IMG/VR virus record: IMGVR_UViG_3300017909_000959
Location: 1-37,486 of that record
From: a virus
Lineage: Duplodnaviria > Caudoviricetes
Direction: 5' to 3' (one strand)
DNA length: 37,486 bases
Shown: positions 1-16,829 of the stretch, one piece after another
How the letters are laid out: every line of letters begins with the position of its first letter
Position numbering within the stretch: position 1 is the stretch's first letter
Position numbers and translations under genes: made by a program
Notes under the pieces: generated by a model
Seen by the model: the letters and a program-made list of their open reading frames with translations, nothing else
Told to the model about the DNA's origin: nothing
Database searches by the model: none

Positions 1-1419
1 TAAAGACCCCCCATAAGCAACCTCGATTGTAGGCAAAGCCCCTGCTTGGCGCATACGTGCCTCAAAGTCGCTTTGAGACGTAGGTTGATTTTTACGGCTA
101 GCAGAAAAAGGATTAGACTTTGATGAAGCTCCGTAGAAGTCCGCCATAGCTTTATCTGATGCTTCTTGTTGCTGTCTGATCGTGCTTCCACTGTACCCTG
201 AACTAGTTGTTCCTCTAGTTGAATTACCATCGTCCCTAACATTATTTGCTGGAGTAGACGGTTTTGGAGTGTTAGCTTTATATTTTTTTAAATCTTCTAA
301 AGAGGATATACCTAAAGAACTTCTATCTAATATCTTTCCTACTGTGTCTGAAGAAAATTGATTTGATGAGTCGTATTTTGCTCCCATACTTCGAATACTT
401 TTAGCGTACGCATCTAACTGCCCCTGAAACGATGTACGCATCATATCATCTACTCTTCGCGTACCCAACATACTACTTGCTCCAGATGTAAGGCTATCTC
501 TAAAGTTTTTAAGACCTAACTCTTCAAGTCTTTTAGCTGCTGCACCGCCAAGTGAGGCACTTTGTAATCGTCTGCCTGTAGCATCTACAAAAACTCCATT
601 TGCTTTCATATACACTGTTGTTTTACCCGAACCACTTATAACTCTAGGATCAACAATATCAATCGCTAGTACATCTCCAGTAAGACCCGCGCCAGCCTGT
701 TTTCTATCTTCTTTATCAGCTCTGTACTGTCCAGCACTGTAGGCTATTCCGACACCTTCACCTATATCTGTTCTTTTTTGAGCTGCTACAATACCATCTA
801 ATTGTCCTGCACTAAGTCCTCCGTGGTTTCCTGTGTAAGTACGCATACCTTTAAAACCAAACGTATTATCATTCCACGTAACAATGTTTCCGTTAACTTT
901 TATGTACTCTCCGGTAGCAGCAATGTTATTAGCGTGTACTCGCATAGATAAATCCCAAGCAGAACCTAGTATTCCATCAGGACGATACGAATTAAGACCT
1001 TTAATGCCTAATACGTCATTTTGCATTTTTCCCGTAAGCGTTTTTGCTAGAGCTGGCGCACCAAAAGAAAGAATAGGATCTATTGTTCCTGTTAATAACC
1101 CTTGAGCAGCAATACTACCCCCTGTCAAGTTTTTTTGAGTTATATATGAGGGAACTCGATCTTTCTTTAATGTTTTTATACCTTCTTCTGCACTAAAATC
1201 CTCAACAGTAAAAAATTCAACATCTCCAGTAAAATCAGATAAATCATCTCTGTCTTCTGTAACTTTGTCCTCAAATATAGGAACAGGCTGTGGGGCAGCA
1301 TCTATGGTTTCTTTTTCTTCTTTTTTAGGTTCGTCTGCTATGTACCCCATCATTGTATCAAAGTTTACATAGTAGGCAGAATCGTAATTATCACTAGTTA
1401 TAGGTACGAGTTTAGCCAT
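1..1419 (-). CDS. Virion-associated protein, 3'-truncated by the window edge (>473 aa)
   Basis: ATG at 1419 (MAKLVPITSDNYDSAYY...) overlaps the end of the upstream 74-aa ORF. The frame appears open to position 1 (...TIEVAYGGSL) and is absent from the ORF track, consistent with no stop in the window. Located downstream of portal. Confidence 0.7.
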   Translation of the reverse strand, partial: MAKLVPITSDNYDSAYYVNFDTMMGYIADEPKKEEKETIDAAPQPVPIFEDKVTEDRDDLSDFTGDVEFFTVEDFSAEEGIKTLKKDRVPSYITQKNLTGGSIAAQGLLTGTIDPILSFGAPALAKTLTGKMQNDVLGIKGLNSYRPDGILGSAWDLSMRVHANNIAATGEYIKVNGNIVTWNDNTFGFKGMRTYTGNHGGLSAGQLDGIVAAQKRTDIGEGVGIAYSAGQYRADKEDRKQAGAGLTGDVLAIDIVDPRVISGSGKTTVYMKANGVFVDATGRRLQSASLGGAAAKRLEELGLKNFRDSLTSGASSMLGTRRVDDMMRTSFQGQLDAYAKSIRSMGAKYDSSNQFSSDTVGKILDRSSLGISSLEDLKKYKANTPKPSTPANNVRDDGNSTRGTTSSGYSGSTIRQQQEASDKAMADFYGASSKSNPFSASRKNQPTSQSDFEARMRQAGALPTIEVAYGGSL

Positions 1420-1636
1420 TATTTTTTACCACCGCTTCATAATTATTCTTCAACTTGAGAAGTGTTTCCAGTAAACCCAGCTTCCCCTGCGCCCGGAGCA
1501 ACTCCGACTCCGATTGTGCCGTTACCACGGCCTGAATCGTCAGTTCCCTGAGATCCGTTAGGTACTCCTCCAGACTGTTCCATTCCGGGTTGTTGATTAG
1601 GGGAGCTAGCATCCGCGCTTGCTTGTTGTTGAGCAT
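1412..1636 (-). CDS. Small post-portal head protein (74 aa), overlapping the portal 3' end
   Basis: Helical protein with LRAQGK motif, AAGGA upstream, stop coupled to the next start; resembles small genes following portal in podoviruses. Confidence 0.65.
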   Translation of the reverse strand: MLNNKQARMLAPLINNPEWNSLEEYLTDLRELTIQAVVTAQSESELLRAQGKLGLLETLLKLKNNYEAVVKNNG

Positions 1637-3542
1637 CTTGCATTAATCCTTGTAACATTTTTGCGTAAACTTGTGCTTCGTTTACATCGTTTACTAAACT
1701 ATCGGGATCGATATCTTGAGATATTGCTAACTCTCTCATCAGATTTGGTAACTTAATAAACGGAGCAAGCATAGGATTAGCAACTGTTTGTAAGAGAGAA
1801 GTAAGACGTTGAGTACGTACTTCTTTTTGCATAACTGCTGCTACACCACGAGGTTTTATTTCTAAATCCCCTTCGACATCTTCTACGTTCTTGTTAAACT
1901 GCATATTCCATTGGAAGTAGGCTTCTCCAAGAGGTTTTAACAGGTGATCATCAATGTTCTTTATTATTGTTTTCATCGACAATCCAGCCGAACCCATCAA
2001 CATTGACAGTCCTGCAGCCGTACGTCCTGTTCCTGTAACCCCTGTTTGTCCGTGCATAATTGAAGGAATGCCTGTCTCTTCGTCAGCCAACTGTCTAGAT
2101 ATTTGATACATCTGTATATTTTCCGGTGCGGTGTTGGGAAACTTTAGTCCGTTGATAGCTGTGCCAGTGACACCTGACTGTCTACGAAATATTTTACCCG
2201 GAAAGATATCCATGTTTTGACCCGGAACAAGACTAGCTTCGTCCACGTCGAATACTAAGTTACCTGCAAGAGCTAGGTTATCAATAGCCATTCGCATGTG
2301 ACCATTCATAAGCATTTGAGCATCTTCCATATTTTCTGCTACGCCAACACCCCAAAGTTGATAGGGGTTTATTTCAAAAGGAAAAGCTTGATAGGGAATA
2401 CGAGCAGGAGTAAACGGATTAAGAACACATCGAAGAACAAACGTACCGCATACCCACGCGTTTATCTGTACTTGATCAAACTCCGACATGCTGTCAGGAA
2501 TGTCCATGCCCACTTCACGAGCAAACTTTGCATCAAGAACACCCCAATACTCTAAAACTTCAAACCTAGTATCTTGATAGTATGCTTCTGTTTCATCTTC
2601 GCGTATTGTATCTTCGTAATACTTATCTTCGTAATTTGGGCCATTTGAGATAGCTTCTTCAATAGCAAACGAATCAAAGTGAGGACGTTTTATTAAAGAA
2701 CGTAATTGTTGCCTGTTCATTCTATGACGTTCTATTACGTACTCTGCATCTTCAACACTTGTCGCGGAAGGATCAGGGTGAAAATCCCAAACAGAAACGG
2801 GTTCTATACGAGGCACTATTTTTTCGTACGGTTCGTAGTTTCGTATTCCTGACTCATCTTTCTTCCAGTTGTGTACCCGTTTATAAAAGTTAAACGGGCC
2901 TTTAATTACCCCTGTTCCAAGTAATGCAGACTCGAATATAGCTTTACGAAAGACGTTTACAGCATTTGTATCAAGCAGTTGATCGTGTATGCACTTTTCC
3001 ATACGACGAGCTTGTTCTTTTGCAGGTTCAAACTGTGGTTCTCCTGCTTTAGCCTTTCCTGCTGCAATTGTATCTCCAAACATTTCTCCGTAAACTCCCA
3101 AGTTCTCTGCTTGGGTAGCTCCCGGATTTAGTTTTCTTCCATCCCCCGGAAATCCATACGGATCTTGTATGTCATCTAAAGGTGTTTTCATATGAGCAAA
3201 TTCCACAATACCTTCCGGCATTGGAGTAGACTCTACAACCAATGGAAACTTCTTGTTTGCAAATAAAATGTCTACTATCTGACCATATGCAGCCAAAACT
3301 TTTGTTTTAGTAATCTTTAAAAATACTTTAGATTTTTCTGAATCACGAAACTGTGTAGTAGAATCGTACACCCCACGAAAGTTTTTGTACGCTTTTAACC
3401 AGCGTTGTTCGTAGGAGTATCTCCCGTTTTCTGCATCTTGAAAACGTGCTTTAATATACCCTGCAAGTCCGGGCATAGTTTCGCTAGGAGATACTACGTC
3501 TACAGCTTCATCCTCATCTGGCTGCAAAAAGTTATCAGACAT
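1443..3542 (-). CDS. Portal (head-tail connector) protein, P22-like
   Basis: 699 aa downstream of terL; portal-type segments (ESALLGTGVIKG, WDFHPDPSA, WGVGVAE, IDNLALAGN, ADEETGIP, RTAAGLSML); Q/G-rich C-terminus. Confidence 0.9.
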   Translation of the reverse strand: MSDNFLQPDEDEAVDVVSPSETMPGLAGYIKARFQDAENGRYSYEQRWLKAYKNFRGVYDSTTQFRDSEKSKVFLKITKTKVLAAYGQIVDILFANKKFPLVVESTPMPEGIVEFAHMKTPLDDIQDPYGFPGDGRKLNPGATQAENLGVYGEMFGDTIAAGKAKAGEPQFEPAKEQARRMEKCIHDQLLDTNAVNVFRKAIFESALLGTGVIKGPFNFYKRVHNWKKDESGIRNYEPYEKIVPRIEPVSVWDFHPDPSATSVEDAEYVIERHRMNRQQLRSLIKRPHFDSFAIEEAISNGPNYEDKYYEDTIREDETEAYYQDTRFEVLEYWGVLDAKFAREVGMDIPDSMSEFDQVQINAWVCGTFVLRCVLNPFTPARIPYQAFPFEINPYQLWGVGVAENMEDAQMLMNGHMRMAIDNLALAGNLVFDVDEASLVPGQNMDIFPGKIFRRQSGVTGTAINGLKFPNTAPENIQMYQISRQLADEETGIPSIMHGQTGVTGTGRTAAGLSMLMGSAGLSMKTIIKNIDDHLLKPLGEAYFQWNMQFNKNVEDVEGDLEIKPRGVAAVMQKEVRTQRLTSLLQTVANPMLAPFIKLPNLMRELAISQDIDPDSLVNDVNEAQVYAKMLQGLMQDAQQQASADASSPNQQPGMEQSGGVPNGSQGTDDSGRGNGTIGVGVAPGAGEAGFTGNTSQVEE

Positions 3543-3544
3543 TT

Positions 3545-3763
3545 TTAGTAATCGCGCTCTTCTGCCATGTTCATTACAGATGCGTCAACTGTTGTTTTAG
3601 TTTGCTTTTTAGGCATATCTTCAGTTAACGTACCTTGTTCTGTTTTAGTATCAAACTCTAAATTCTCACGAGTTAGTTGAGCTTCGCCCATGTTAGCATC
3701 TACTGAAGTTTTATCAGACCCCAATATATAGGATGCACCATAGTTATAGTTATTGCCCGGCAT
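3545..3763 (-). CDS. Small hypothetical late protein (72 aa)
   Basis: AAGGAG RBS; tightly packed between the 617-aa gene and portal. Confidence 0.7.
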   Translation of the reverse strand: MPGNNYNYGASYILGSDKTSVDANMGEAQLTRENLEFDTKTEQGTLTEDMPKKQTKTTVDASVMNMAEERDY

Positions 3764-5603
3764 TTTTTTCTCCTTCTAATTGATTTTTTTGCCTAGTCAT
3801 AAACCCAGCAGAAAGTAAATTGTCTCTTCCTAGCTGGTCTCTTTTTTCTTTCATCGATGGAATTTCTTCCTGAAGTGTGTACGTTTGTGTCATTAGTTGT
3901 TGTTGCGTTGCAGGAGCATCGGGTTGATCAGATCCAGCCCCTGCTTGTTTAGAACCTAACAGTATTCCGGGAACAGCCGCAGCAGGGCCAGCTCCAAGAC
4001 CAATACCTCTAGCTCCTATCTCTAGCCCAGTTTCAAGCGCGGCTTGAGCTGGATCAGATACTATAGAGCCAACTGCAATTCCCCCTACTCCTAATTTAAA
4101 GAAATCAGCTAACCCAAGTTTACGTAGCTTATCTTTTAAACTATCGCCAAACTCTTCGTCAGGCGGATTTATTTTATCAGGTTCTTGTGCTTCTAGATCT
4201 GTCAATGGTGTTACTGTATCGTTTTGTGCTTTTCGTTCTGCTCTTTTTCGTGCAGCCTCAGTTCGTAGTTCACTAACCTCTTGTTCTTTTTTTATGTTAG
4301 CTATCTGCGCGTCAAGCCCTTTTCCCTTTGCTACTTCATTTATTTCAAGTAACTCTCCTTCAGTAAGAGTTCTTCCTTGATTTGATGGAGCAGATAAATT
4401 ACCAGCCGTTTCAAACGTAATCATTTGTTCTGGTGTAGGATAATTTAAGGTATTTGCAAAACCCGTGTTTCTATTTACAAACAAAGTGTTTACACTTGCT
4501 GCTCCTACGTTCCGTGCGTCGTTTCGTATAAGAACATTTGTCATTTCTCCTACACGCTTATCGGGAACTTGACCTGTATAACTGTCTTCTGTTATGTCTC
4601 CTGCTGCGTTTACTCCCGCCCCAGCGTGACCCATCCAAGCTTTAAGCGCATCTGAGGGAAACTCAAACTCTTGTTTTAGCTGTCTAGCTAATATTTTACG
4701 TATTGTAGAGTGACTTCCCTGCTTACTTTTAGGAAGCTGTTCTGAAAATCTCTCTTCTAAAGTAGGACGTATAGTAGCATCCCACAAAGATGTAACTGCT
4801 TTATCACTTGTTTGAAAAAGATTAACTTTGTTTAAGTCTGCATCTGGAGATAAATTTGCTTTTGCTCTGTCTACTTTATCTTTTAAAAACTCCGCAAATT
4901 CACCACTATAAACGACCTCTGGTCGTGTTTTTTGTCCAGACGTTTTACCGCGTACTTCCACCATTTGCTGACCGTTTTTACCCTCGTAAAAATTGAAATC
5001 AGCTATCTTTAAACCGTCAGGGCCAATATTAGATTTTGCTCTTTGTCCTGTATACTTTTCATATATAAGATAGTCCCTAGCCTCAGGGTCAATAATTACA
5101 ATCTTATCTTTACCCGTTTTTGTATCAGAAACAACATAAGACGGATTAGCAAGTGCCTCTTGATATATCTGATCCATTTGAGCAGAAGGAACAAGACCTC
5201 TCATAGGATCTTTAGCTCTTGCCTGTACCCCAGCTAATCCAAAAGTAGCTTGTGCAACTCCACCTTTTCCAGTTAGCTTTTCGTACGGTTCATTTCTCTT
5301 TGATCCTGATACTAGACCACTAAACTGAGTTTCAAAAGCTTGATAGGATTGCCATCTTCGAGTGCCTGTCTTGTTAGTTGTTTCATCTAACGCTTCGTTG
5401 TACTCTTTAGTTTTATACGTATCAAAATAATTACTATTTAGGTCAATGCCTTCTTCAACAATCGCATTTTTTAATGCAGTTATGTTTGTTCTATTACTGT
5501 CTGTAAGTTTTTTAGCTAAAACAGCATCAAACGCTTCACCGACAGTTATTGAGCCATCGCGTATCTTAACATTATAATCTATTGTGGGAGTTTCTTCTGC
5601 CAT
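3750..5603 (-). CDS. Tyrosine recombinase-family protein with a long C-terminal extension (617 aa)
   Basis: Ordered motifs RDYLIYEKYTGQR (R188), LKIADF, VRGKTSGQKTR (K220/K225), NLF, HSTIRKILARQL (H298, R302), KAWMGH (H326), ITEDSY (Y342) match the R-K-H-R-H-Y catalytic set. Confidence 0.75.
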   Translation of the reverse strand: MAEETPTIDYNVKIRDGSITVGEAFDAVLAKKLTDSNRTNITALKNAIVEEGIDLNSNYFDTYKTKEYNEALDETTNKTGTRRWQSYQAFETQFSGLVSGSKRNEPYEKLTGKGGVAQATFGLAGVQARAKDPMRGLVPSAQMDQIYQEALANPSYVVSDTKTGKDKIVIIDPEARDYLIYEKYTGQRAKSNIGPDGLKIADFNFYEGKNGQQMVEVRGKTSGQKTRPEVVYSGEFAEFLKDKVDRAKANLSPDADLNKVNLFQTSDKAVTSLWDATIRPTLEERFSEQLPKSKQGSHSTIRKILARQLKQEFEFPSDALKAWMGHAGAGVNAAGDITEDSYTGQVPDKRVGEMTNVLIRNDARNVGAASVNTLFVNRNTGFANTLNYPTPEQMITFETAGNLSAPSNQGRTLTEGELLEINEVAKGKGLDAQIANIKKEQEVSELRTEAARKRAERKAQNDTVTPLTDLEAQEPDKINPPDEEFGDSLKDKLRKLGLADFFKLGVGGIAVGSIVSDPAQAALETGLEIGARGIGLGAGPAAAVPGILLGSKQAGAGSDQPDAPATQQQLMTQTYTLQEEIPSMKEKRDQLGRDNLLSAGFMTRQKNQLEGEKNAGQ

Positions 5604-7313
5604 CTAGTATCCGAATACTTCATCTTGTACCATGTGTACGTGACTTTTAATGCTGTTAAGCTGTTGGTTTACAGAAACGTACCCGCTTGTACGCGTCATA
5701 ACCATGTATCGTAGTGCGTCGTACGCGTGATCTTCAGCTTTTGTATCTACGTCTTCGCTGTTTGTTTTAGAAAGAGGAATACCTGTCAGTTGTTTAATTA
5801 TATTCTGACAGGTTGAAAATATGCGTAGTCTAGGTTCATTTGAGTAAGGGTCTACTGCTAACCGTCTGTGTACTTCCATTTTTCCTTGAAGACGGTTGCG
5901 ATCTGATGGTGTCCATCGTACACCCCCACGCATCATTGTTTCTGCTATGGATGGCCCAAACCCTGTTTTGTTCCAACACGACGAGTCTAACACTGTATAG
6001 TAAGGAGTTGGGTCAAGTTGTTCTACTTCTAGTATTTTATCGGCAAGCTCTTCGGCTGTCAAGTGTTTTACGTACAGTTCACGATAAACCCAGATATTAC
6101 CGTCCCAATCAATAGCACCCCAAAGAACACAAGAAGGGGACGCATAACCGTAATCTGCTGCTCGTATGCGAGGCCAGTTAGTGGGTAGATCATAGGGTTC
6201 GACAACATGCTTCCCTCTTGCAAACTCTGGAAACGCAGCACCCTCTGCAACATCCCAATCTCCCTCTAATAATCTCTTTCTTTCGACCTCTGGTAACGAA
6301 AGCAACATAGCCTCGTACTGACCGTCTGCCATCAGAAACGGATTGTCTGTCAGTCTTGCAGGTACAAATCTTCTGTAAAATAGTGGCTCTCCTGATTTTT
6401 CATGGTTAGTTGGGTAGGTAAAAGGTTTTTGCGTTTCTAAATCAAACGCTGCAAAAGGTTTATTTGGCTCGACTCCGTCTATGTACATTTTCTTGACCCA
6501 CCAACCTCCTACACCGCCCGGATTGGCTGTGCAGCGCATATACAGGTGCTGCTGCAACTCTGGATCTGTACTACGGAGTCGAGAACGCAAATAGTCCCAA
6601 ACGTACGGAGTGGGATACTGCGTTATCTCGTCTATGCCTATCCAGTTAAACGCTTGACCTTGAAAACGTGTTACGTCTTTGTCTTTGTCTAGGTACGTGA
6701 ACCAGATAGTAGCCCCGGATGGAAAGTGCCAAGTTGATTTAGACTCACGAAACTTTGCACCGGGAAAAGCTTTTGTATAAAGTTGTCTGGACTTGTCTAT
6801 AAGTTCGGTTAGTTCGTCTAATGTGCGACGAAGGAGAAGCCCACGATGATTAGGATTGTGGCAATACCTAAGAGGATCAGCCAGTAGCGCGAAGCTTTTG
6901 CCACCACCTGCTGCCCCACCGTAAAGAACATCTCTTTCAGAAGAAGATAAAAATTCTTCTTGTGGGCCTTCGTTTGGCTTAAATACGACTTCGTACTCGT
7001 CCACCAAATCTTGTACCCCAGAGCGTAATCCAGCCAAATCTCCTTGATCGATGACGCGACTTGACGTACCTTGAAGTCCGGTTTCAACTTTTCCAATCTT
7101 TTCTTCAAGCTTTCTAGCATATCTTCGTTTGTCTTCTGCAGCTTTGGTTGTTTTGGCTGCTCGTTTCTTTGCAGCGTTCAGTTGTTTTTGAGCTGCACGT
7201 CTAGCTCTTTCTTTTCGAGATAGATTGTACACAGCTTTCGGAGCGTTGGGGTCTTTTTTGGGTCTGCCCCGTGGTTTCTTTTCTTCTGGCATCTCTTTAG
7301 GCCATTCAGCCAT
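5604..7313 (-). CDS. terL: Terminase large subunit
   Basis: Walker A GGAAGGGKS, Walker B IGIDE, TANPGG coupling motif, nuclease motifs ADYGY and DHAYDALRY. Confidence 0.95.
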   Translation of the reverse strand: MAEWPKEMPEEKKPRGRPKKDPNAPKAVYNLSRKERARRAAQKQLNAAKKRAAKTTKAAEDKRRYARKLEEKIGKVETGLQGTSSRVIDQGDLAGLRSGVQDLVDEYEVVFKPNEGPQEEFLSSSERDVLYGGAAGGGKSFALLADPLRYCHNPNHRGLLLRRTLDELTELIDKSRQLYTKAFPGAKFRESKSTWHFPSGATIWFTYLDKDKDVTRFQGQAFNWIGIDEITQYPTPYVWDYLRSRLRSTDPELQQHLYMRCTANPGGVGGWWVKKMYIDGVEPNKPFAAFDLETQKPFTYPTNHEKSGEPLFYRRFVPARLTDNPFLMADGQYEAMLLSLPEVERKRLLEGDWDVAEGAAFPEFARGKHVVEPYDLPTNWPRIRAADYGYASPSCVLWGAIDWDGNIWVYRELYVKHLTAEELADKILEVEQLDPTPYYTVLDSSCWNKTGFGPSIAETMMRGGVRWTPSDRNRLQGKMEVHRRLAVDPYSNEPRLRIFSTCQNIIKQLTGIPLSKTNSEDVDTKAEDHAYDALRYMVMTRTSGYVSVNQQLNSIKSHVHMVQDEVFGY

Positions 7314-7749
7314 TCTTTTCCGACGAACGTGATGCGGGTCTGCCTCTATGACTTACTAAACCACCTTTTCTAAAACCTTGCGGGTTTTTTCGTCTTTGTT
7401 CCATGACAGATGTTGCGCGACCAGCACTATCTTTTTTCACAGTATTTACATCGTCACTTTTCTTTGTTGCTACTCCTAGTAAAGAAAGTATTTCTTTTTT
7501 TATGGTTTTATCAGAATAGTCTTTTTCTTTGTAAAGTCTGTCCTTTGTCGGGTCTTGTTTTTCTAAATCTCTATATAATTCTTGCAAAGATTTCATCACT
7601 GCAATATCTAATTGGTCTTTTTTGTTTAGTCTATCAAACAAAGGAGTTATTTCTCTTACGGCAGGGCCATATTTTCTAATAATCCCTGTTCTAGATTTTA
7701 ATTGTTTTACTTTACTTGTGCTAGGTGCTTTTCTATCCATACTAACCAT
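7306..7749 (-). CDS. Basic hypothetical protein (147 aa)
   Basis: Overlaps the terS stop and terL start; Lys-rich; C-terminal FRKGGLV. Confidence 0.7.
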   Translation of the reverse strand: MVSMDRKAPSTSKVKQLKSRTGIIRKYGPAVREITPLFDRLNKKDQLDIAVMKSLQELYRDLEKQDPTKDRLYKEKDYSDKTIKKEILSLLGVATKKSDDVNTVKKDSAGRATSVMEQRRKNPQGFRKGGLVSHRGRPASRSSEKNG

Positions 7750-8143
7750 CTATTACCACTTCTTTCTTTGGTGGTAGCAGGACTACCCCGTGTATTGCTT
7801 GGACGTTGTGGTTAATTTGCTCTTGTTTTGCTACGCCAACCCTGTTTAACAGCGATTCTGCGGCTCGTAGACGCAAATCATCCCCTCTTTCGGGGGTAAG
7901 GTTATCAATCGTACTAACTAGCCTGTTAGCGGCTCTAAACGCGTTTAAAGATAGTACGTCTTTTGTACGTTCGATAATTTCATCTGCCAACGTACGCTTC
8001 AACCAAGCTACACTTCCCTGCGAGTACCCGGCATCTAGGGCTGCTTGGGTGGGGTTTCCACCGTTTTCAAACAGATTTGTAAGAAATAGCTGCTGTTGTT
8101 CAGTCAACTCGCGTTCTTTTCGCTGTTGAGGAAGTAAATTCAT
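7742..8143 (-). CDS. terS: Terminase small subunit
   Basis: LTEQQQLFL...GNPTQAALDAGYS HTH signature and RLRAAESLLNRVG; first gene of the late operon. Confidence 0.85.
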   Translation of the reverse strand: MNLLPQQRKERELTEQQQLFLTNLFENGGNPTQAALDAGYSQGSVAWLKRTLADEIIERTKDVLSLNAFRAANRLVSTIDNLTPERGDDLRLRAAESLLNRVGVAKQEQINHNVQAIHGVVLLPPKKEVVIDG

Positions 8144-8260: not shown

Positions 8261-8289
8261 ATAATATAGGCAAAACTCCTAGATGTCAA
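8261..8289 (-). promoter_or_regulatory. Sigma70 promoter for the terS/late operon
   Basis: TTGACA (8289-8284), 17-nt spacer, TATTAT (8266-8261). Confidence 0.7.
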
Positions 8290-8444: not shown

Positions 8445-8806
8445 ATACAAAAAATAAAAATTACACTAAAATATGGCGAGATTGCTAGACAATGTACCCG
8501 TACCCCCCAGTGGCCCATGCGTACGCCCGACGTAAAACATAAATAAATATCATTGATATTTACCAAGGCTGTGATATCGCGGAAATAACCGTTGATTAAA
8601 CCCACACTTTAAACCCCTGAAGCATTCGCGCCCGTGCGCTCGCGTGTTTCGCATTTTGTCATTTGTCATTATCCCCACTGGTTACTTATACCATAAACCC
8701 CGAAAGGGATTGACACGGCCTTAAAAATGCGAGCATCACCCGAACAACGCACCACCGGATAAACCCAACAATTACAAACTGCTGACTATTATTCTAGTTC
8801 GAATAC

Positions 8807-8866: not shown

Positions 8867-9091
8867 TTACATATCGTTGCGGATATCTACTTCAAAGTCT
8901 GCTACGGTGTACGCGTCCTTATTATCGGTATAAGAATAAGGATCAAGGCCGGCATTCTTACAAATGTCTTTTAAATTTTGTGACATTGAAGCAATCTGAC
9001 CAACCATAAAAAGGATTTGTATCTGCTCTTCTTTCGTAAGAATGATATTCTTTTTGTTGGCGAGATCTTTTATAGTTTGCTGTTTTAACAT
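8867..9091 (-). CDS. Hypothetical early protein (74 aa)
   Basis: AGGAG RBS; last gene before the terminator. Confidence 0.7.
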   Translation of the reverse strand: MLKQQTIKDLANKKNIILTKEEQIQILFMVGQIASMSQNLKDICKNAGLDPYSYTDNKDAYTVADFEVDIRNDM

Positions 9092-9103
9092 AGTAGTATA
9101 CTC

Positions 9104-9274
9104 CTATTCTATTGTTGTTGAAAATGTGACATCGCTTATTTTTTCCTCGAACAAGCTGTCGAATTCACTTTCGACTATATGTTTAACATCGTCTTCTGTC
9201 AACACATGTTGCATATTGAGGTCGATATATTCTTTTATAACGTCTTCAATCATTTGGGATAAAGTCTTTTCCAT
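9104..9274 (-). CDS. Small acidic hypothetical protein (56 aa, MEKTLSQMIEDVIKEY...)
   Basis: Read manually (below the track cut-off); AGGAG RBS; fills the gap in the operon. Confidence 0.65.
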   Translation of the reverse strand: MEKTLSQMIEDVIKEYIDLNMQHVLTEDDVKHIVESEFDSLFEEKISDVTFSTTIE

Positions 9275-9285
9275 CTTGTAAGCTC

Positions 9286-9690
9286 CTACGCTGTTAGTTG
9301 AAATTTAACGTTACCGCCTCCAGTAACCTTATTAATTTTATATCCTGCTTTTCTTAATTTGTAAATACAGGTATAAATGCTATTTCTTTTGAGGCCAGTT
9401 CGCCTCTCGATTGTTTTAAGTGTTATTGGGTATTTTCTCGCCTTTAATTCTGCGAGAATGTTAGCGTGTGAACGACTCATCCCTTGAACATTTTTATCAG
9501 TCCGGAACACTGTTTTAAGGAATTTTCTTGTTGCCTCCTCTTGTTTTCTTTCGTGTTCGGAACACGCATTCATGGCCTGTAATAGATGCCTATTTGCTTT
9601 AACCAAGTTTTTATTCGCCTCGACTACATTTACCTGAATATCTTTAAATGTTAGTAATTTTTTCATGGTATTTCCTTTATATAAAAACAA
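9286..9690 (-). CDS. Winged-HTH DNA-binding protein (likely start at the Met of MKKLL)
   Basis: C-terminal ITLKTIERRTGLKRNSIYTCIYKLRKAGYKI wHTH pattern. Confidence 0.7.
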   Translation of the reverse strand: MFLYKGNTMKKLLTFKDIQVNVVEANKNLVKANRHLLQAMNACSEHERKQEEATRKFLKTVFRTDKNVQGMSRSHANILAELKARKYPITLKTIERRTGLKRNSIYTCIYKLRKAGYKINKVTGGGNVKFQLTA

Positions 9691-9765
9691 AATATAAAAT
9701 TGATAATATGATTATTGCAATTGCTAGTCTATAAATTGCAAGTATTATCTCTAAGAAGTTGACCA

Positions 9766-10716
9766 TCACGCAACCAACATATCGCGCCAATTGTCACTCT
9801 CGACCAACTCGCGGACAACGTCCTGTCGTTGTCTCTGGACATCATGGACGCGATGACCTTTTCGTGAACGTGGGCTGTCGAGTGTGTGGGTTGACCAGTG
9901 GGTAAGAACGTTAAACGCATTCCAACCCGTACGCCCACAATCGACAATTTGCTCTTCCCACAATTTCATTAAGTAGTCGTGAAGCCCGTTATTTATCCGG
10001 TTTGGGTGTTTATCGTCGGAAGTATCACACAAAGTAAACTGCAAAAACTTTCCAAAATCACCCTCTGAAACATGGCTATTTTTTAAATGTCGCATGTATT
10101 CGCGTTGATTCAAAAATGTATCCAGTGACACGTTAGCTTTGTTAAGGATAGCTGTTGGCTCTAGATTCCGAGTGTGTTTTCTTTTTTGATGAAATGCCTT
10201 TTCTCCACCAAACACGAGCGTATTTTGACACAAAGAACGGTACGCACCGGAAAACACCTGAAAAGCCCAAGACATATCAATACTATTATAAATGTCTATT
10301 CTTGGTGTTACTGGATCATTTGCTCCAACGTCTACTTTTAAGCCGTCAAAATAAATAGTACGATGGGCCTTTTTACCATTCTCGAAGATGCGATCAACAA
10401 TAGACAAGTCTGTCCGGTGTTCTGGGAATTGCTCTATAAATTGTAGCGCATGTTCTAACAGCATTTTTTCATGTGGAATAAGATTGTAGCTTTTCGGAAC
10501 TGGTCGCATATCAACTATTTTCCGGGTCGCTGTATTGTACACCGCCTGATAGTCGGTAAGCTCGTTAATCATCCCGTCAATTTCAACTAGCGACGGTACG
10601 CGCTCGAACTTGGCCTCGCTATGGTACAAGTCCAAATCAGTAATAGTACTATGTCTATATTCAACTTTATTAGCTGAACGATTTATTTTATTATTTGTTG
10701 TTACAATGTCTAACAT
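9766..10716 (-). CDS. DUF932-family phage/plasmid protein
   Basis: IYNSIDMS...GAYRSLCQNTLV...KRKHT and TGWNAFNVLTHWSTH patterns; GGAGG RBS. Confidence 0.75.
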   Translation of the reverse strand: MLDIVTTNNKINRSANKVEYRHSTITDLDLYHSEAKFERVPSLVEIDGMINELTDYQAVYNTATRKIVDMRPVPKSYNLIPHEKMLLEHALQFIEQFPEHRTDLSIVDRIFENGKKAHRTIYFDGLKVDVGANDPVTPRIDIYNSIDMSWAFQVFSGAYRSLCQNTLVFGGEKAFHQKRKHTRNLEPTAILNKANVSLDTFLNQREYMRHLKNSHVSEGDFGKFLQFTLCDTSDDKHPNRINNGLHDYLMKLWEEQIVDCGRTGWNAFNVLTHWSTHTLDSPRSRKGHRVHDVQRQRQDVVRELVESDNWRDMLVA

Positions 10717-10772
10717 GTTTTAACCTCCTACAGTTTTTATTGCTAGATAAAATAATCCTTACTTTAAGCTGC

Positions 10773-11492
10773 CTAATGTGTCAAGAAAATAATTGGCTCA
10801 GAAGACTGCCAACACAAACAACAAGACGCACAATTAGCAACACGTCCTGTCTGTTCTGGGCATACAGTGGCGCGTTTTTCATAGTCTTTTATTGTGATAG
10901 TGTCGCGCTGTTTGTCACTTGACAACGCAGAGAAGCTTGTATCTCCGGCATCAGAAAAACGGACGTTAAATCGTGGGCTATCTACTACTTCATAGACTGA
11001 ATAAAGCTTGCGTAAATTAGCTATTTCTTTTCCGATTGCGCTAGTTGGCTTGTGGGCCGTATAACCCCAAACAGCTAGATTATCATAAGTCATTAGCAAC
11101 TCATCCCACAACTTCACATAGTCAACAGAATAAAAGTCACCTAACACATGCAAGCGTACTATCACGCCTTTGTAAGTGTCGCAAAGTTTGTCTATTTCTA
11201 CTCTTAGTTTGTTTTCTAGTTCTGGGCCGTGCTGTATCCGGTGAGCAAATGCCATGTTATTTCCATAACAGTCATCCCAGTGGAAGCACTCACGCGGACA
11301 CGTTGCCCGTTCTTCTAAAGTTAAAGTGTAGATTACATAACCTTTAAACCTACCCTTTTTTACTTGTGGCAATCGTTCATCAGATATCTTTTTATTTTTA
11401 GATAACTTTAAAACATTTTTAGCTTGCTCTACAGTACGCCTTGAGTTTACGTACATAGTAGAATTAGGTTTGTTTATGTCTGCTTTTCTCAT
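10773..11492 (-). CDS. GP88-like Cys-rich (radical-SAM-like Fe-S) protein
   Basis: TCPRECFHWDDCYG, VRLHVLGDFY, WGYT, and C-terminal CPEQ...CASCCLC. Confidence 0.65.
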   Translation of the reverse strand: MRKADINKPNSTMYVNSRRTVEQAKNVLKLSKNKKISDERLPQVKKGRFKGYVIYTLTLEERATCPRECFHWDDCYGNNMAFAHRIQHGPELENKLRVEIDKLCDTYKGVIVRLHVLGDFYSVDYVKLWDELLMTYDNLAVWGYTAHKPTSAIGKEIANLRKLYSVYEVVDSPRFNVRFSDAGDTSFSALSSDKQRDTITIKDYEKRATVCPEQTGRVANCASCCLCWQSSEPIIFLTH

Positions 11493-11721
11493 GTTCTGAT
11501 ACTCCTACATTACTATGTAGTTTCTCATACAGTAAACTGCGGGTATTGTCAAGTTTTATTCTACTTTGACTAGCATATCGATCCAACCAACATCGAGCGC
11601 AAAGAAGCTCTCCTCGATCTCCTATTGCGTCCGACGGTCTACCACAACCACATTCTGGTCTAGTAGTGTCAACGTATTTGTCTTGTCTAGAATCTAACAT
11701 AATGTGTCTCGCCTTTGTCAC
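11464..11721 (-). CDS. Small Zn-finger-like protein
   Basis: CGCG...LCARC motif; in operon. Confidence 0.55.
   Translation of the reverse strand: MTKARHIMLDSRQDKYVDTTRPECGCGRPSDAIGDRGELLCARCWLDRYASQSRIKLDNTRSLLYEKLHSNVGVSEHEKSRHKQT
11522..11552 (-). promoter_or_regulatory. Sigma70-type promoter, degenerate third copy of the 31-bp element
   Basis: TTGACA-17-TATGAG; 3' part AGTTTACTGTATGAGAA matches AGTTTGCTGTATGACAA at 15/17. Confidence 0.6.
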
Positions 11722-11923
11722 GTAAAGATTTTATTTCGTTGTACTCTTTCCACAAGTGGTCAGCGTTTTTGCCTTCCCACTCTAAGTCAGTGATTTTGTC
11801 AAGTAAGCGTTTCAGCTCTTTGTTTATGTCGACGATTGCCTCTAATTCTGTTTGTTCGTCATCAGTTGTAAAGTCTATCATTTGTCTTCTCCTAGATAAC
11901 TCAATACGCTTACTTAGTTTCAT
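11687..11923 (-). CDS. Hypothetical early protein (78 aa)
   Basis: ORF track; compact operon. Confidence 0.6.
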   Translation of the reverse strand: MKLSKRIELSRRRQMIDFTTDDEQTELEAIVDINKELKRLLDKITDLEWEGKNADHLWKEYNEIKSLRDKGETHYVRF

Positions 11924-11930
11924 CCGTTTG

Positions 11931-12140
11931 TCAGTCTCGATCAGCTATATGAGTATACAGCTTGCCATCTCCCATCATTTCTGCGTACAGAAAATCGCAC
12001 AACACTCTGCGTGGATCTACCCCATCCTCTAATATCTCTTCAATAACTCGTGTAAGAGTGCCGTAAGCCTCGTGTCTATCTACAACATCCAATATTGCTT
12101 GGACTGTTGCGTCCGGTAATCTGTCTTCTGCTAAAGTCAT
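11931..12140 (-). CDS. Hypothetical early protein (start MTLAEDR)
   Basis: ATGA overlap with the upstream stop. Confidence 0.6.
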   Translation of the reverse strand: MTLAEDRLPDATVQAILDVVDRHEAYGTLTRVIEEILEDGVDPRRVLCDFLYAEMMGDGKLYTHIADRD

Positions 12141-12640
12141 ATCGCTACTTCCATTTCGTCTGTTAAGTACCATTGTTTGTTTGTGTTAGTTGTCCAGTTA
12201 CCGTTAGGTTCTCCATCGTCCCCATCACACGGGTCACATTCATAAACAACACACAAAGGACGATTTGGTTTTGAATCAGACCAAAAGATACAAAGGTCAA
12301 ACATGCGTTCATCAACTTGAACACCAATCCAAAAGTTTTCCTCAATAAGACTCCCGTCTTTATCAAAGGGGTCTGGGTGTTCTTTTCTAAATTCATCTAG
12401 TGCCTCTGTGTAGTAGAAGCTAAACAACATAGCTTTCTCGTGGTCACTGACTTGTAACTCAGTTGTCGTGTCATCCTTCTCAGAAGTTTTTGTTTCAGGA
12501 TGTACGTCGATAGCACAATCTAAAACGTGGTCATCCCAATCGTAATCATCGGTAGCGTTACGTTTAGCAATCACTTCGTCATCTGCCTCAATGTCACGTA
12601 TTAAATAATTTACTGTAATATATGCTTTGTACTTAGGCAT
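12137..12640 (-). CDS. Acidic hypothetical protein (start MPKYKAY)
   Basis: AGGAGA RBS upstream of ATG 12640. Confidence 0.65.
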   Translation of the reverse strand: MPKYKAYITVNYLIRDIEADDEVIAKRNATDDYDWDDHVLDCAIDVHPETKTSEKDDTTTELQVSDHEKAMLFSFYYTEALDEFRKEHPDPFDKDGSLIEENFWIGVQVDERMFDLCIFWSDSKPNRPLCVVYECDPCDGDDGEPNGNWTTNTNKQWYLTDEMEVAI

Positions 12641-12653
12641 CTTCGATAGTCTC

Positions 12654-12833
12654 CTACTCTCTAAGTTTTGACAAATAACTATCAACCTCGAACAGATCAT
12701 TTAGTCCCTGTTCATGTATGAGGGTCACACGTTCAACTGTGTAGCAGTCATCACATAGAATAGCCTTTACGTCAGGGCAGTCGAAATCCTCTCCAAGAAC
12801 CCCACAATTTTTACAGTTCATCATATCAGTCAT
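12654..12833 (-). CDS. Small Zn-finger-like protein
   Basis: CKNC...LCDDC motif. Confidence 0.55.
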   Translation of the reverse strand: MTDMMNCKNCGVLGEDFDCPDVKAILCDDCYTVERVTLIHEQGLNDLFEVDSYLSKLRE

Positions 12834-12972
12834 CACCAATGCCTTCCTGTATTAAATCAATCATCTTTGACTGCAACTCTTCTGGTAACGAATCGATAAA
12901 GTCACCTACACTAAGTTCCATTATGTCCTCGAACTTGCGTTCTAAATATTCCTCGTGACCGTGGTGGCTCAT
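12826..12972 (-). CDS. Small acidic protein (48 aa, MSHHGHEEYLERKFEDIMEL...)
   Basis: Read manually; AGGAG RBS; ATGA overlap with the upstream stop. Confidence 0.55.
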   Translation of the reverse strand: MSHHGHEEYLERKFEDIMELSVGDFIDSLPEELQSKMIDLIQEGIGDD

Positions 12973-13262
12973 GGTAATACTCTCCTATTTGTAAAGTCTG
13001 CTCCATCACCATACTCGTCAGGTATAACCTCACCTTTTACTCTGTCCCAACATTCCACCGTGTCACTGGTTTCTATCCAGACTTTAGCACCACAAGACAG
13101 TGGCTTATCCGGACTGTATACTACTTCAGCAAGACCATCTAACAAAACCCTATCACAATAGATGTTTTGTTTACCTGACTTTACTGTAATGACAGGCTCA
13201 CGCGTATCTTTCTTGTTGTTCGAGCGAATGATGTGCTGATTGACGTGTATTCTTTTAATCAT
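12969..13262 (-). CDS. Conserved-looking phage hypothetical protein (97 aa)
   Basis: IHVNQHIIRSN...EPVITVK...YSPDKPLSCGAKVWIET pattern; AGGAG RBS. Confidence 0.75.
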   Translation of the reverse strand: MIKRIHVNQHIIRSNNKKDTREPVITVKSGKQNIYCDRVLLDGLAEVVYSPDKPLSCGAKVWIETSDTVECWDRVKGEVIPDEYGDGADFTNRRVLP

Positions 13263-13285
13263 GTTGTTTCTCCTACGTTATGATT

Positions 13286-13483
13286 TTATCGTTTGACGTG
13301 ATGAAAAAAGATTACATCCTCACCTAACGGAAGGGCATAATCCCAGTTCTGTACTTTTTGTTTTCCTACGTACTCCCAAGTGTAACCATCTTTATAGTTA
13401 CGCTCCATAGCGTCCATAACTTTGAAGTTGTTATCGTCGTTGGCAAACAAAACAAATGTTATTATTCCAAATATTGTTAGCAT
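13286..13483 (-). CDS. Small protein with an N-terminal hydrophobic segment (65 aa)
   Basis: GAGG RBS; first gene after the promoter at 13511-13541. Confidence 0.65.
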   Translation of the reverse strand: MLTIFGIITFVLFANDDNNFKVMDAMERNYKDGYTWEYVGKQKVQNWDYALPLGEDVIFFHHVKR

Positions 13484-13510
13484 TTTTACCTCACTACTGC
13501 GTTGATTTAT

Positions 13511-13541
13511 TTGTCATACAGCAAACTAAATATTATGTCAA
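13511..13541 (-). promoter_or_regulatory. Leftward early promoter/operator; copy 1 of the 31-bp inverted repeat
   Basis: Reverse complement reads TTGACATAATATTTAGTTTGCTGTATGACAA (TTGACA-17-TATGAC). Confidence 0.8.
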
Positions 13542-13542
13542 G

Positions 13543-13583
13543 AAAAAAAAAGAGGGCAACACTGATACAATGCTACCCTCTTT
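13543..13583 (-). terminator. Rho-independent terminator after the RHH gene
   Basis: AGAGGGUAGCA/UGUUGCCCUCU 11-bp stem (two G-U pairs that form only on the minus strand) plus a U-tract. Confidence 0.8.
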
Positions 13584-13658
13584 GTGACGTAGGAGATTAC
13601 CATGTTTGTTTATCGACATGATTAGTCTATTAATACATCTCATATATTTACTATATTG

Positions 13659-13856
13659 TCAAGTGGTTTCTTCACTTTCTTCATAGGCATCTAGGTAAAC
13701 CTCGATTGACTCTCTCATTAGATCCGCAACGGACACTTGTATACCGTGTATGTTACTTTCTTTGTGAGCTATGTAGGATAGTTTGTCATAGTGTTCTGTT
13801 TTTAGGTTAAGGTTGTATACTTTTGTTGGTTCTAGTATTTTATTTGGTCTTGGCAT
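13659..13856 (-). CDS. Ribbon-helix-helix transcriptional regulator
   Basis: Alternating beta strand KVYNLNL, helix EHYDKLSYIAH, then SVADLMRESIEVYL; GAGGAG RBS. Confidence 0.7.
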   Translation of the reverse strand: MPRPNKILEPTKVYNLNLKTEHYDKLSYIAHKESNIHGIQVSVADLMRESIEVYLDAYEESEETT

Positions 13857-13929: not shown

Positions 13930-13960
13930 TTGACATAATATTTAGTTTGCTGTATGACAA
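13930..13960 (+). promoter_or_regulatory. Rightward replication-operon promoter/operator; copy 2 of the 31-bp inverted repeat
   Basis: TTGACATAATATTTAGTTTGCTGTATGACAA, identical to the reverse complement of 13511-13541. Confidence 0.8.
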
Positions 13961-15983: not shown

Positions 15984-16300
15984 TGCGCGTACGTACACCA
16001 GAACAAAAACAAAGAAAAGTTTTGTACGCTGCCAAGCGTAGAAACAGACGTAAACATCATCTAAATAACTACAAGACAAAGAAAGGGTGTGCTGTGTGTG
16101 GATACAACGCACAAGGGTGCGCTCTTGACTTTGATCATTTAGACAGGAAAACTAAACTAGCCTCTGTATCTAGGTTAACGTTGGGTTCGCTGAAGAAATT
16201 ATTTGACGAGATACGCAAGTGCCAAGTTCTATGTAGGAACTGTCATCAAATAAAGTCTACCATAGAGGAGAAGCAGATACATGCGAATACTGGTATTTGA
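15983..16300 (+). CDS. HNH endonuclease-like protein
   Basis: CAVC...LDFDHL...CQVLCRNCH; ATG overlaps the helicase TGA. Confidence 0.8.
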   Translation: MRVRTPEQKQRKVLYAAKRRNRRKHHLNNYKTKKGCAVCGYNAQGCALDFDHLDRKTKLASVSRLTLGSLKKLFDEIRKCQVLCRNCHQIKSTIEEKQIHANTGI

Positions 16301-16829
16301 CGTAGAAACTACACACGTTGCCAAAAAGTCTGGGGGTACAACACCACTGCCGTACTTTGGTAACAGGCTAGTATCGATAGGCTATAAGTGGGTAGGCGGT
16401 CAATCAAACTACATTTGTTTTTATCACTCTACTGAAGAGCCAACTGAAGATGGTTTTAAAACATTCCAAGACGCGCTTGATTTGGCAGATGTTGTTGTAG
16501 GTCAAAACCTGAAGTTTGATCTGTGTTGGATACGCGAGTGTGGATTCAAATACGATGGTCAAATATATGACACTATGGTCGCAGAGTACGTCTTGTCGAA
16601 GTCTCGTGGGTGGCCTTTAAATCTAGAAGCTTTGGCAAAGAAGTACAGCACGATAGAGAAGAAGAAAGATCTAACTAAGGACTATCTGTCCGACGGTAAA
16701 ACGTTTTACGAAATACCGTGGGATATAGTTCGTGAGTACGGAGAAGCAGACGTAGAGTCCACCGAACAAGTTGCACTAGGACAACTTAAAAAATTTGATA
16801 CAACATTCGAGGAGTTGTTCAGTGAGTAG
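16281..16829 (+). CDS. 3'-5' proofreading exonuclease domain of a split PolA
   Basis: DEDDy motifs FDVET, GQNLKFD, YDTMV, YGEADV. Confidence 0.85.
   Translation: MRILVFDVETTHVAKKSGGTTPLPYFGNRLVSIGYKWVGGQSNYICFYHSTEEPTEDGFKTFQDALDLADVVVGQNLKFDLCWIRECGFKYDGQIYDTMVAEYVLSKSRGWPLNLEALAKKYSTIEKKKDLTKDYLSDGKTFYEIPWDIVREYGEADVESTEQVALGQLKKFDTTFEELFSE

What the first reader, a model, noticed from the sequence alone, without database searches (positions are those of the whole stretch)
3750..5603. Tyrosine recombinase with a virion-like tail, inside the packaging operon between terL and portal
Seen: residues ~175-345 carry the ordered catalytic set (R188, K220/225, H298-xxx-R302, H326, Y342). Spacing is atypical: HxxxR instead of HxxR, and 16 residues from H to Y. 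About 270 further residues follow (coiled coil, acidic linker, Gly/Ala-rich hydrophobic stretch) that resemble internal virion proteins. The gene abuts terL with no gap, so it should be expressed late. Known: phage integrases normally sit in a lysogeny or early module next to attP, while Cre (P1) and protelomerases (N15 TelN) use the same chemistry for circularisation or end resolution. Inference: a late-made, possibly packaged and ejected recombinase that circularises or resolves the genome, processes concatemers, or integrates on entry. This is the best candidate for an undescribed system here.
Basis: partly seen in the sequence, partly recalled or inferred. Interest (0 to 1): 0.85.

Follow-up and report, generated by a model that had tools for sequence, protein, structure and literature searches.

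The report
Swappable recombinase in phage packaging operon
A group of uncultured marine phages keeps, between its terminase and portal genes, a tyrosine-recombinase-fold protein with a long tail that comes in dozens of interchangeable, barely related versions; it is likely an active DNA cutter that is possibly loaded into the phage head and likely aimed at DNA other than the phage's own.

Summary
The gene is real (minus strand, 617 aa) and is a very divergent tyrosine recombinase: predicted core-binding plus catalytic fold, with R188, K225, R302, H326, Y342. H298 is not catalytic; the HxxR histidine is absent family-wide. The slot terL | recombinase | 72-aa gene | portal is filled in every terL-seeded locus long enough to judge, in an uncultured HMO-2011-related clade. 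Cultured relatives lack it. The striking feature is polymorphism: 196 full-length genes fall into 30 clusters at 45% identity, both arginines are kept in 175 of 175 distinct proteins, and phages over 99% identical in terL and portal carry unrelated versions, swapped without flanking DNA. A conserved sigma-70-type promoter hidden in terL precedes the gene, so late timing is not shown. The tail ends in a short GF-type motif shared with predicted virion proteins; packaging is inferred, untested. No attP, prophage or allele-linked self site was found, and the 31-bp repeat is private to this strain. Best reading (0.38): a polymorphic, probably head-carried enzyme acting on non-self DNA. Rivals: genome-end processing, relocated integrase. 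This scan found the same gene slot before on two other genomes.

The parts
3750..5603 (-). Slot gene: tyrosine recombinase family protein with C-terminal tail, 617 aa
5229..5576 (-). Predicted core-binding (SAM-like, four-helix) domain, aa ~10-125; no arm-binding domain in front
   Evidence: model; matches to isolated integrase CB domains; coordinates
4554..5216 (-). Catalytic domain aa ~130-350: R188 (5040-5042), K225 (4929-4931), R302 (4698-4700), H326 (4626-4628), Y342 (4578-4580); HxxR His replaced by S299
4218..4361 (-). Predicted long helix / coiled coil, aa 415-462
   Evidence: pLDDT about 82-91; absent or short in some alleles
3954..4109 (-). Gly/Ala-rich, moderately hydrophobic stretch, aa ~499-550
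   Evidence: best 19-residue hydropathy 1.48; family median 1.27 against 0.80 in the core
3798..3806 (-). GF-type end motif (aa 600-602); in this allele just outside the last 16 residues used for the count
5604..7313 (-). Terminase large subunit; its stop abuts the slot gene and marks the left swap boundary
6034..6062 (-). Sigma-70-type promoter (TTGACA-17-TAAAAT) embedded in terL, 431 nt before the slot gene
3545..3763 (-). Conserved 72-aa ORF between slot gene and portal; does not swap with the allele
1443..3542 (-). Portal protein
7742..8143 (-). Terminase small subunit
8261..8289 (-). Sigma-70-type promoter upstream of terS
   Evidence: such a site in 67 of 68 distinct relatives against 10% of shuffles
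8475..8516 (-). Clade-wide conserved G/C-rich motif upstream of terS, candidate packaging or terminal-repeat signal; the same across alleles
   Evidence: contig depth 2-3 times the flanks around 8461-8732 in three of four runs, a hint only

Best explanation
The gene encodes a tyrosine-recombinase-fold protein with a conserved R-K-R-(H/R)-Y set that fills one fixed slot in many interchangeable versions, and it likely works as a polymorphic DNA-cutting effector, possibly loaded into the head by its tail and injected, whose target is likely non-self DNA such as the host chromosome or its islands. Shown: fold (predicted), residue conservation, fixed slot, allele exchange, embedded promoter motif, shared end motif. 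Inferred: (1) the core clamps a specific site and cleaves through a 3'-phosphotyrosine, as the family does; (2) the tail's GF-type motif is a head-loading tag, as it is shared with two predicted internal virion proteins; (3) each allele reads a different site, and since no phage site travels with the allele the site lies outside the phage; (4) rare alleles are favoured because hosts can change or protect the site. The outcome would be breakage, deletion or rearrangement of host DNA early in infection, topped up from the gene's own promoter. Probable origin: the ordinary HMO-2011-type integrase, moved and fused to a tail (weak evidence).
For: Catalysis kept: R188 175/175, R302 175/175, Y342 173/175, K225 143/175 with 29 alignment gaps. 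Two alleles without significant blastp similarity both model as CB+CAT recombinases (Z 10.4, rmsd 8.3, 264 aligned to Tn1549 Int; Z 14.2, rmsd 7.8, 243 aligned to archaeal Xer). Polymorphism: 30 clusters at 45% among 196 genes; L015 and L092 are 99.7% (terL) and 99.3% (portal) identical in DNA yet carry different alleles, with boundaries at the terL stop and the gene end; 7 allele lineages need 31 changes on a 65-tip terL tree, minimum 6, shuffled mean 39. No co-swapped DNA: 330-940 nt upstream of terS stay 93-99% alike across different alleles; the conserved motif follows terL (r 0.64) more than allele (r 0.27). The second helix of the CB domain, a DNA-reading helix by family knowledge, is the most substituted element among close pairs in both lineages tested (0.24 vs 0.107; 0.187 vs 0.094, no significance test). 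End motif [GNS]F[LIVM] in the last 16 aa: 70 of 88 distinct slot ends, 5 of 6 g173 ends, 0 of 53 portal, 0 of 52 terL, 0 of 41 DUF932, 22 of 462 other ORFs, 13 of which are post-portal proteins. Post-portal proteins carry swappable muralytic domains in 8 of 26 clade proteins scanned, as virion-carried proteins do.
Against: No direct evidence of packaging, expression, activity or target; the host is unknown. The motif is 3 residues, was defined after seeing the tails, and 18 of 88 slot ends and the window's own post-portal protein lack it. g173 and the post-portal protein are themselves only predicted virion proteins. The tail shows no profile homology to other proteins. In phiM6 the same slot holds phoH and a hydrolase, so position alone does not imply a head protein. 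The gene is present in every locus long enough to judge, which fits an essential self function. The motif upstream of terS shows a small residual same-allele effect (coefficient 0.037, p 0.001 by label shuffling, not corrected for kinship). Other predicted ejection proteins also diverge fast here (21-26% identity for the 1524-aa protein), so fast divergence alone is no proof of an arms race.
Confidence: 0.38

Rival explanations
1. Self-genome processing, like baculovirus VLF-1 or P1 Cre: the enzyme joins the terminal repeats on entry, resolves concatemers, or nicks DNA as a terminase cofactor. All alleles would use the same phage site or a DNA structure, and divergence would serve to escape host sensing.
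For: Fixed slot next to terL, 106 of 106 adjacent where both were found; 73 of 80 metagenome loci positive and the other 7 cut within 620 nt; a conserved motif and a depth rise upstream of terS hint at a terminal repeat; no arm-binding domain, as in simple recombinases; VLF-1 precedent.
Against: Alleles as far apart as 11-20% identity are swapped with no change of the conserved motif; cultured relatives with 50-58% identical terL package without it; the phage has its own endonuclease I.
Confidence: 0.25
2. A relocated integrase: the phage is temperate, each allele has its own attB, and attP lies inside the swapped gene, so that integration splits the late operon.
For: HMO-2011 and CRP-1/2/3 carry a tyrosine integrase, and CRP-3 integrates at tRNA-Met; the clade has no other integrase (0 of 5 near-complete genomes); the clade-wide core profile picks HMO-2011 gp09 as its only non-slot hit (E 0.0066 in 2143 ORFs) and gp09 also lacks the HxxR His; the gene has its own host-type promoter.
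Against: No member among GTDB species genomes; no host DNA or split gene in 80 metagenome loci; no tRNA T-loop match in any slot gene; no island of synonymous conservation in the core of six allele clusters; the tail is unexplained.
Confidence: 0.2
3. A weapon or selfish element among co-infecting kin: each allele cuts genomes that carry other alleles and spreads by gene conversion, as free-standing homing endonucleases do.
For: Sharp swap boundaries at the terL stop and many balanced alleles in one population.
Against: Boundaries simply follow the end of homology and vary (one lies at codon 139, others inside the tail); no immunity gene swaps with the allele; no empty-slot target was seen.
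Confidence: 0.1
4. A sequence-tolerant topoisomerase IB-like relaxase that relieves torsion during packaging, ejection or transcription.
For: HxxR His missing, Lys at that position in 45 of 117 close homologues; topoisomerase IB appears at Z 8.4 and 9.8.
Against: Both models keep the helical CB domain of site-specific recombinases and rank Xer/Int first; a relaxase gives no reason for 30 allele clusters.
Confidence: 0.07

Closest known systems
Xer / Tn1549 Int / lambda Int type tyrosine recombinases (PF00589)
   Same: CB + catalytic fold; R, K, R, H, Y in order (XerA E 9.6e-10 for the clade profile).
   Different: Window protein has no Pfam or PHROG hit; HxxR His absent; second His is Arg in 82 of 175; 160-320 aa tail; optional N-terminal modules; packaging-operon position; no site known.
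HMO-2011-type integrase (HMO-2011 gp09, CRP-3 Int; PMC6918029, PMC9038755, passages read)
   Same: Same phage lineage; His-less motif before the second Arg; weak profile hit.
   Different: gp09 is 292 aa, lies before primase and has no tail; integration was shown for CRP-3, none is seen for this clade.
Baculovirus VLF-1 and bracovirus VLF-1/INT-1 (PMC11654684, PMC3649998, passages read)
   Same: Tyrosine recombinase family members found in virions and tied to packaging or excision: the best functional analogy.
   Different: Eukaryotic viruses; conserved single core genes, not swappable alleles; homology beyond the fold was not tested (one nudivirus VLF-1 at Foldseek rank 50, E 0.06).
P1 Cre and protelomerases TelK/TelA/ResT
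   Same: Same chemistry; act on phage ends or redundancy (recalled).
   Different: Lower structural scores (Cre Z 7.5 and 9.8; TelA/TelK 4.7-6.5); they have one cognate self site, none was found here.
Podophage internal/cargo proteins (T7 gp6.7, gp7.3, PMC11784390 abstract; crAss001 C1, PMC10172136 passages)
   Same: Proteins stored in the head, some docked on the portal; small genes upstream of portal can encode them (bioRxiv 10.64898/2026.06.25.734500, passages).
   Different: None is a recombinase; no sequence link was shown.

Membership tests
Tyrosine recombinase superfamily | Catalytic domain fold | tested here: met
   Two independent allele models match Int/Xer; profile hits to XerA, Tn1549 Int, XerD
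Tyrosine recombinase superfamily | Helical core-binding domain before the catalytic domain | tested here: met
   Matches to isolated CB domains, Z 5-7.5
Tyrosine recombinase superfamily | Conserved Arg, Lys, Arg, Tyr | tested here: met
   175/175, 143/175 (29 gaps), 175/175, 173/175
Tyrosine recombinase superfamily | His of HxxR | tested here: not met
   His at R-3 in 0 of 175; also missing in HMO-2011 gp09, so not a sign of inactivity by itself
Tyrosine recombinase superfamily | His/Trp before the tyrosine | tested here: inconclusive
   H326 in the window; column reads R 82, H 75, K 11, T 7 of 175, the K/T rows having His one column earlier
Tyrosine recombinase superfamily | Covalent 3'-phosphotyrosine cleavage and strand exchange | not testable with these tools
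   needs purified protein
Phage integrase (lysogeny) | attP matching a host site | tested here: inconclusive
   No T-loop match and no synonymous island in the gene; host unknown, short cores would be missed
Phage integrase (lysogeny) | Prophage or host junction | tested here: inconclusive
   None in GTDB scans or 80 metagenome loci; hosts may be poorly assembled
Phage integrase (lysogeny) | Position in an early/lysogeny module | tested here: not met
   Between terL and portal in all loci judged
Protelomerase | Long palindromic tel site and hairpin ends | tested here: not met
   No perfect inverted repeat of 16 bp or more within 2.5 kb in five near-complete genomes; one 31-bp pair 388 nt apart in the window only
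Topoisomerase IB | TopIB-type N-terminal domain in place of the CB domain | tested here: not met
   N-terminal part matches integrase CB domains; TopIB rows start at model residue ~123-132
Internal virion / ejected protein | Presence in purified virions | not testable with these tools
   no cultured member: no tblastn match in 50,697 phage records for four alleles
Internal virion / ejected protein | Sequence feature shared with head-carried proteins | tested here: inconclusive
   Shared 3-residue end motif; no profile homology
Polymorphic toxin system | Variable effector domain on a shared delivery module | tested here: met
   Same tail and N-terminal modules on unrelated cores; delivery role inferred
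Polymorphic toxin system | Cognate immunity gene next to the effector | tested here: not met
   Downstream 72-aa gene and terL stay the same across swaps

The most novel reading that the evidence does not exclude
A clade of abundant marine podophages loads a site-specific recombinase into its head through a short C-terminal tag shared with its other injected proteins, delivers it with the genome, and shuffles more than 30 specificity variants through one slot like a polymorphic toxin: the first virion-delivered, allele-swapped tyrosine recombinase in a tailed phage, and a natural library of at least 175 compact recombinases with new target sites.
Probability: 0.3. Interest if true: 0.92.

Novelty: new variant of a known kind. 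Interest (0 to 1): 0.74.

Why it matters
[quoted passage not shown] Any of the top three readings changes that or changes the view of these phages as purely lytic: published surveys call HMO-2011-type subgroups without a recognisable integrase obligately lytic (PMC9038755), and this gene escapes Pfam and PHROG. The strict conservation of catalytic residues against extreme, swappable divergence is unexplained and testable without a cultured phage, since alleles can be expressed and their sites mapped. The alleles are also a possible source of new site-specific recombinases.

Tried and rejected
Pfam and PHROG: no family for the window protein; weak PF00589 hits below cut-off for four other alleles. 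phmmer and the close-homologue profile against PDB found no recombinase; wider profiles did (74, 92). ESM Atlas listed integrase clusters at 0.89, a lead only. The 31-bp inverted repeat (13511-13541 / 13930-13960) was rejected as the family's site: only the window and L001 have it, and no inversion joint was listed in four runs of contigs. tRNA T-loop scan: none in six genomes, 4 matches in 1.78 Mb of loci, none in a slot gene. Synonymous-conservation islands: not significant in 5 of 6 clusters; the sixth lies in the shared tail end. L273, a shortened copy, has one in-frame stop, not a host junction. Contig ends do not pile up upstream of terS, so the genome end is not located. No RNA holder was listed. 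Complex prediction of a relative's tail with its portal gave no verdict. Literature searches that found no description of this gene; two searches found nothing on the termini; the supplement search of PMC9038755 listed only the early integrase and one two-member recombinase group. Subscription journals are not in the library, and the gene may sit unnamed in orthogroup tables.

Full report
Observation. The ORF 3750-5603 lies on the minus strand and encodes 617 aa. Its ATG directly follows the terL stop, and its end overlaps a 72-aa ORF that precedes portal. The phage has a family A polymerase with a DnaJ-type zinc motif (weak Pfam hit), and its portal and terL are closest to HTVC103P-type and HMO-2011-type phages at about 46-58% identity. 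I call it HMO-2011-related; I did not place it in a published subgroup.

Fold and residues. The protein has no Pfam or PHROG family. An AlphaFold2 model from 117 homologues is confident over about residues 10-460 apart from 321-350. Foldseek gave no match under E 0.001 in PDB, but its top 30 ranks, as listed, are all XerH, Tn1549 Int, XerA, lambda Int and Cre, and viral integrases lead the viral library (best E 3e-5). VIA-align ranks Tn1549 Int (Z 10.4, rmsd 8.3, 264 aligned), archaeal Xer (9.7) and lambda Int (9.3) above topoisomerase IB (8.4), Cre (7.5) and TelA (4.7). Profiles of distant members hit Tn1549 Int (E 1.3e-4) and XerA (E 9.6e-10). The alignment places K225 on the hairpin lysine and S299 on the HxxR histidine. 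HMO-2011's annotated integrase lacks it too, so the loss does not imply a dead enzyme.

Fixed slot. Searches seeded with the protein gave terL-adjacent genes in 106 of 106 loci holding both, and portal within 150-330 nt in 92 of 93. To remove that bias I searched with terL. In metagenomes 73 of the best 80 of 583 hit the core profile, and the other 7 end within 620 nt of terL. The two sets overlap, so they are not independent. The gene is absent between terL and portal in HMO-2011, HTVC103P, phiM6 and an outgroup contig with 59% terL identity, and four alleles found no match in 50,697 phage records. Five near-complete clade genomes have no PF00589 match, and the slot gene is their only strong hit to the clade profile.

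Polymorphism, the main finding. 196 full-length genes (duplicates included) form 30 clusters at 45% core identity; the 73 terL-seeded proteins of 400 aa or more form 20 clusters at 40% and 7 at 30%. Alleles a (window) and b show no significant blastp match over the core, yet are homologous by profile (probability 99.6), and b also models as a CB+catalytic recombinase (Z 14.2). In 82 of 175 the His before the Tyr is Arg. Near-identical phages carry different alleles: L015/L092, L101/L124, L054/L084, L010/L088 are 99% alike in terL and portal DNA, and identity stops within a few bases of the terL stop and resumes in the tail end or after the stop. On a terL tree of 65 tips (quick search; 8 of 73 loci dropped as identical or incomplete) seven lineages need 31 changes, against a minimum of 6 and a shuffled mean of 39. 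The protein is modular: optional N-terminal pieces of about 85-240 aa (27 of 223) and shared tail ends occur on unrelated cores.

Is there a self site? The region upstream of terS holds a clade-wide motif (window 8475-8516) where contig depth is 2-3 times the flanks in three of four runs, a hint of a terminal repeat. It does not swap with the allele, and near-identical copies occur beside alleles a, b, d and e. Against my reading, a small same-allele effect remains after allowing for terL identity (p 0.001, kinship not corrected). No site was detected inside the gene, no prophage in GTDB, and no host genes in the metagenome loci (only 2 ORFs of 170 aa or more lacked a clade homologue). These are absences of limited power, as the host is unknown.

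Timing. A sigma-70-type site lies inside terL, 431 nt before the gene. Its -35 hexamer is kept in 98 of 104 distinct segments and its -10 in 98 of 104. The two codons that spell the -35 are the most fixed of 70 conserved degenerate codons in the last 200 of terL (100% and 99% of 197 sequences; median 47%), and three outgroups without the gene have no site above 9 of 12 there. The gene therefore probably has its own host-polymerase promoter, which may also serve portal and the head genes. Late expression cannot be read from adjacency.

Tail. After the core come a long helix, an acidic linker and Gly/Ala-rich helices of moderate hydrophobicity. No other ORF matches a tail profile. The ends carry one to three short GF/DF/NF motifs. 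Counted afterwards as [GNS]F[LIVM] in the last 16 residues, it is in 70 of 88 slot ends, 5 of 6 g173 ends (gene at 31777-32298 among the predicted ejection genes) and many post-portal proteins, and in none of the portal, terL, terS or replication proteins. Post-portal proteins are themselves variable and carry lysozyme- or hydrolase-type domains in 8 of 26 scanned. A head-loading tag is the simplest reading, and it is inference.

Mechanism. Strict catalytic conservation says the enzyme cuts DNA. Free exchange of unrelated DNA-binding cores, without exchange of any flanking DNA, says the target is probably not a fixed phage site. The most variable element among close pairs is the second CB helix in both lineages (helix naming by order in the model, role recalled). 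I therefore favour a polymorphic effector against non-self DNA, probably head-carried (0.38), over self-genome processing (0.25), a relocated integrase (0.20), kin competition (0.10) and a relaxase (0.07).

Known systems and novelty. It belongs to the tyrosine recombinase superfamily by fold and by R-K-R-Y, and fails the HxxR His and the early-module position. The nearest functional precedent is VLF-1/INT-1 of baculo-like viruses (passages of PMC11654684 and PMC3649998). For PMC9038755 I read passages, section 17 and a supplement search; for PMC6918029, PMC10172136, PMC11288001, PMC12629253 and the Peru-2 preprint, passages; for PMC11784390 the abstract. Cre, protelomerase and homing-endonuclease biology is recalled. 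My searches found no description of such a gene. Two earlier notes of this scan report the same slot on other genomes; I saw them after my own calls had shown it, and they are not independent support. Verdict: new variant of a known kind, interest 0.74.

Noticed in passing
window 13511-13541 and 13930-13960: Perfect 31-bp inverted repeat around a 65-aa ORF, between the divergent early block and primase; each copy starts with a -35-like hexamer and is an imperfect palindrome (promoter or operator pair). Only in the window and L001.
   Followed up: partly
window 6034-6062 (-), inside terL: Promoter motif held by synonymous codon choice across the clade and missing in outgroups without the slot gene.
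   Followed up: yes
window 8461-8732: Contig depth 2-3 times the flanks and a clade-wide G/C-rich motif: candidate terminal repeat or packaging signal; the phiM6 record starts 600 nt before its first gene with a similar-looking stretch.
   Followed up: partly
window 1-1411 (-); L001 14185-16887, L034, L040, L045, L052: Post-portal gene is a second variable slot (585-1127 aa, sometimes split) with exchangeable Pesticin-like lysozyme or Hydrolase_2 domains.
   Followed up: partly
window 31777-32298 (-): Conserved 173-aa gene among predicted ejection genes shares the C-terminal GF/NF/SF motif with the slot protein.
   Followed up: partly
window 8867-13856 (-) against 13970 onward (+): Early block (DUF932, GP88-like) points away from primase and towards terS in this clade, whereas HMO-2011's early genes run into primase with the integrase last.
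   Followed up: partly
window 16281-18360 (+): DNA polymerase is split into an exonuclease ORF and a DnaJ-motif/polymerase ORF, also in G003 and G005; one gene in HMO-2011.
   Followed up: no
L073, L085, L100, L025, L009 (start of slot gene): At least two unrelated optional N-terminal modules of about 125-140 aa, without Pfam match, attached to different recombinase cores.
   Followed up: partly
window 7306-7749 (-): Gene between terS and terL is variable or absent among close relatives, a third swappable position.
   Followed up: no
L208 (15-kb contig in a MAG labelled Acidiferrobacteraceae): Purely phage contig, outgroup without the slot gene; its post-portal proteins end in GGF motifs.
   Followed up: partly
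L273 slot gene: One in-frame stop after the catalytic domain, tail continuing in frame; error or natural variant not resolved.
   Followed up: yes
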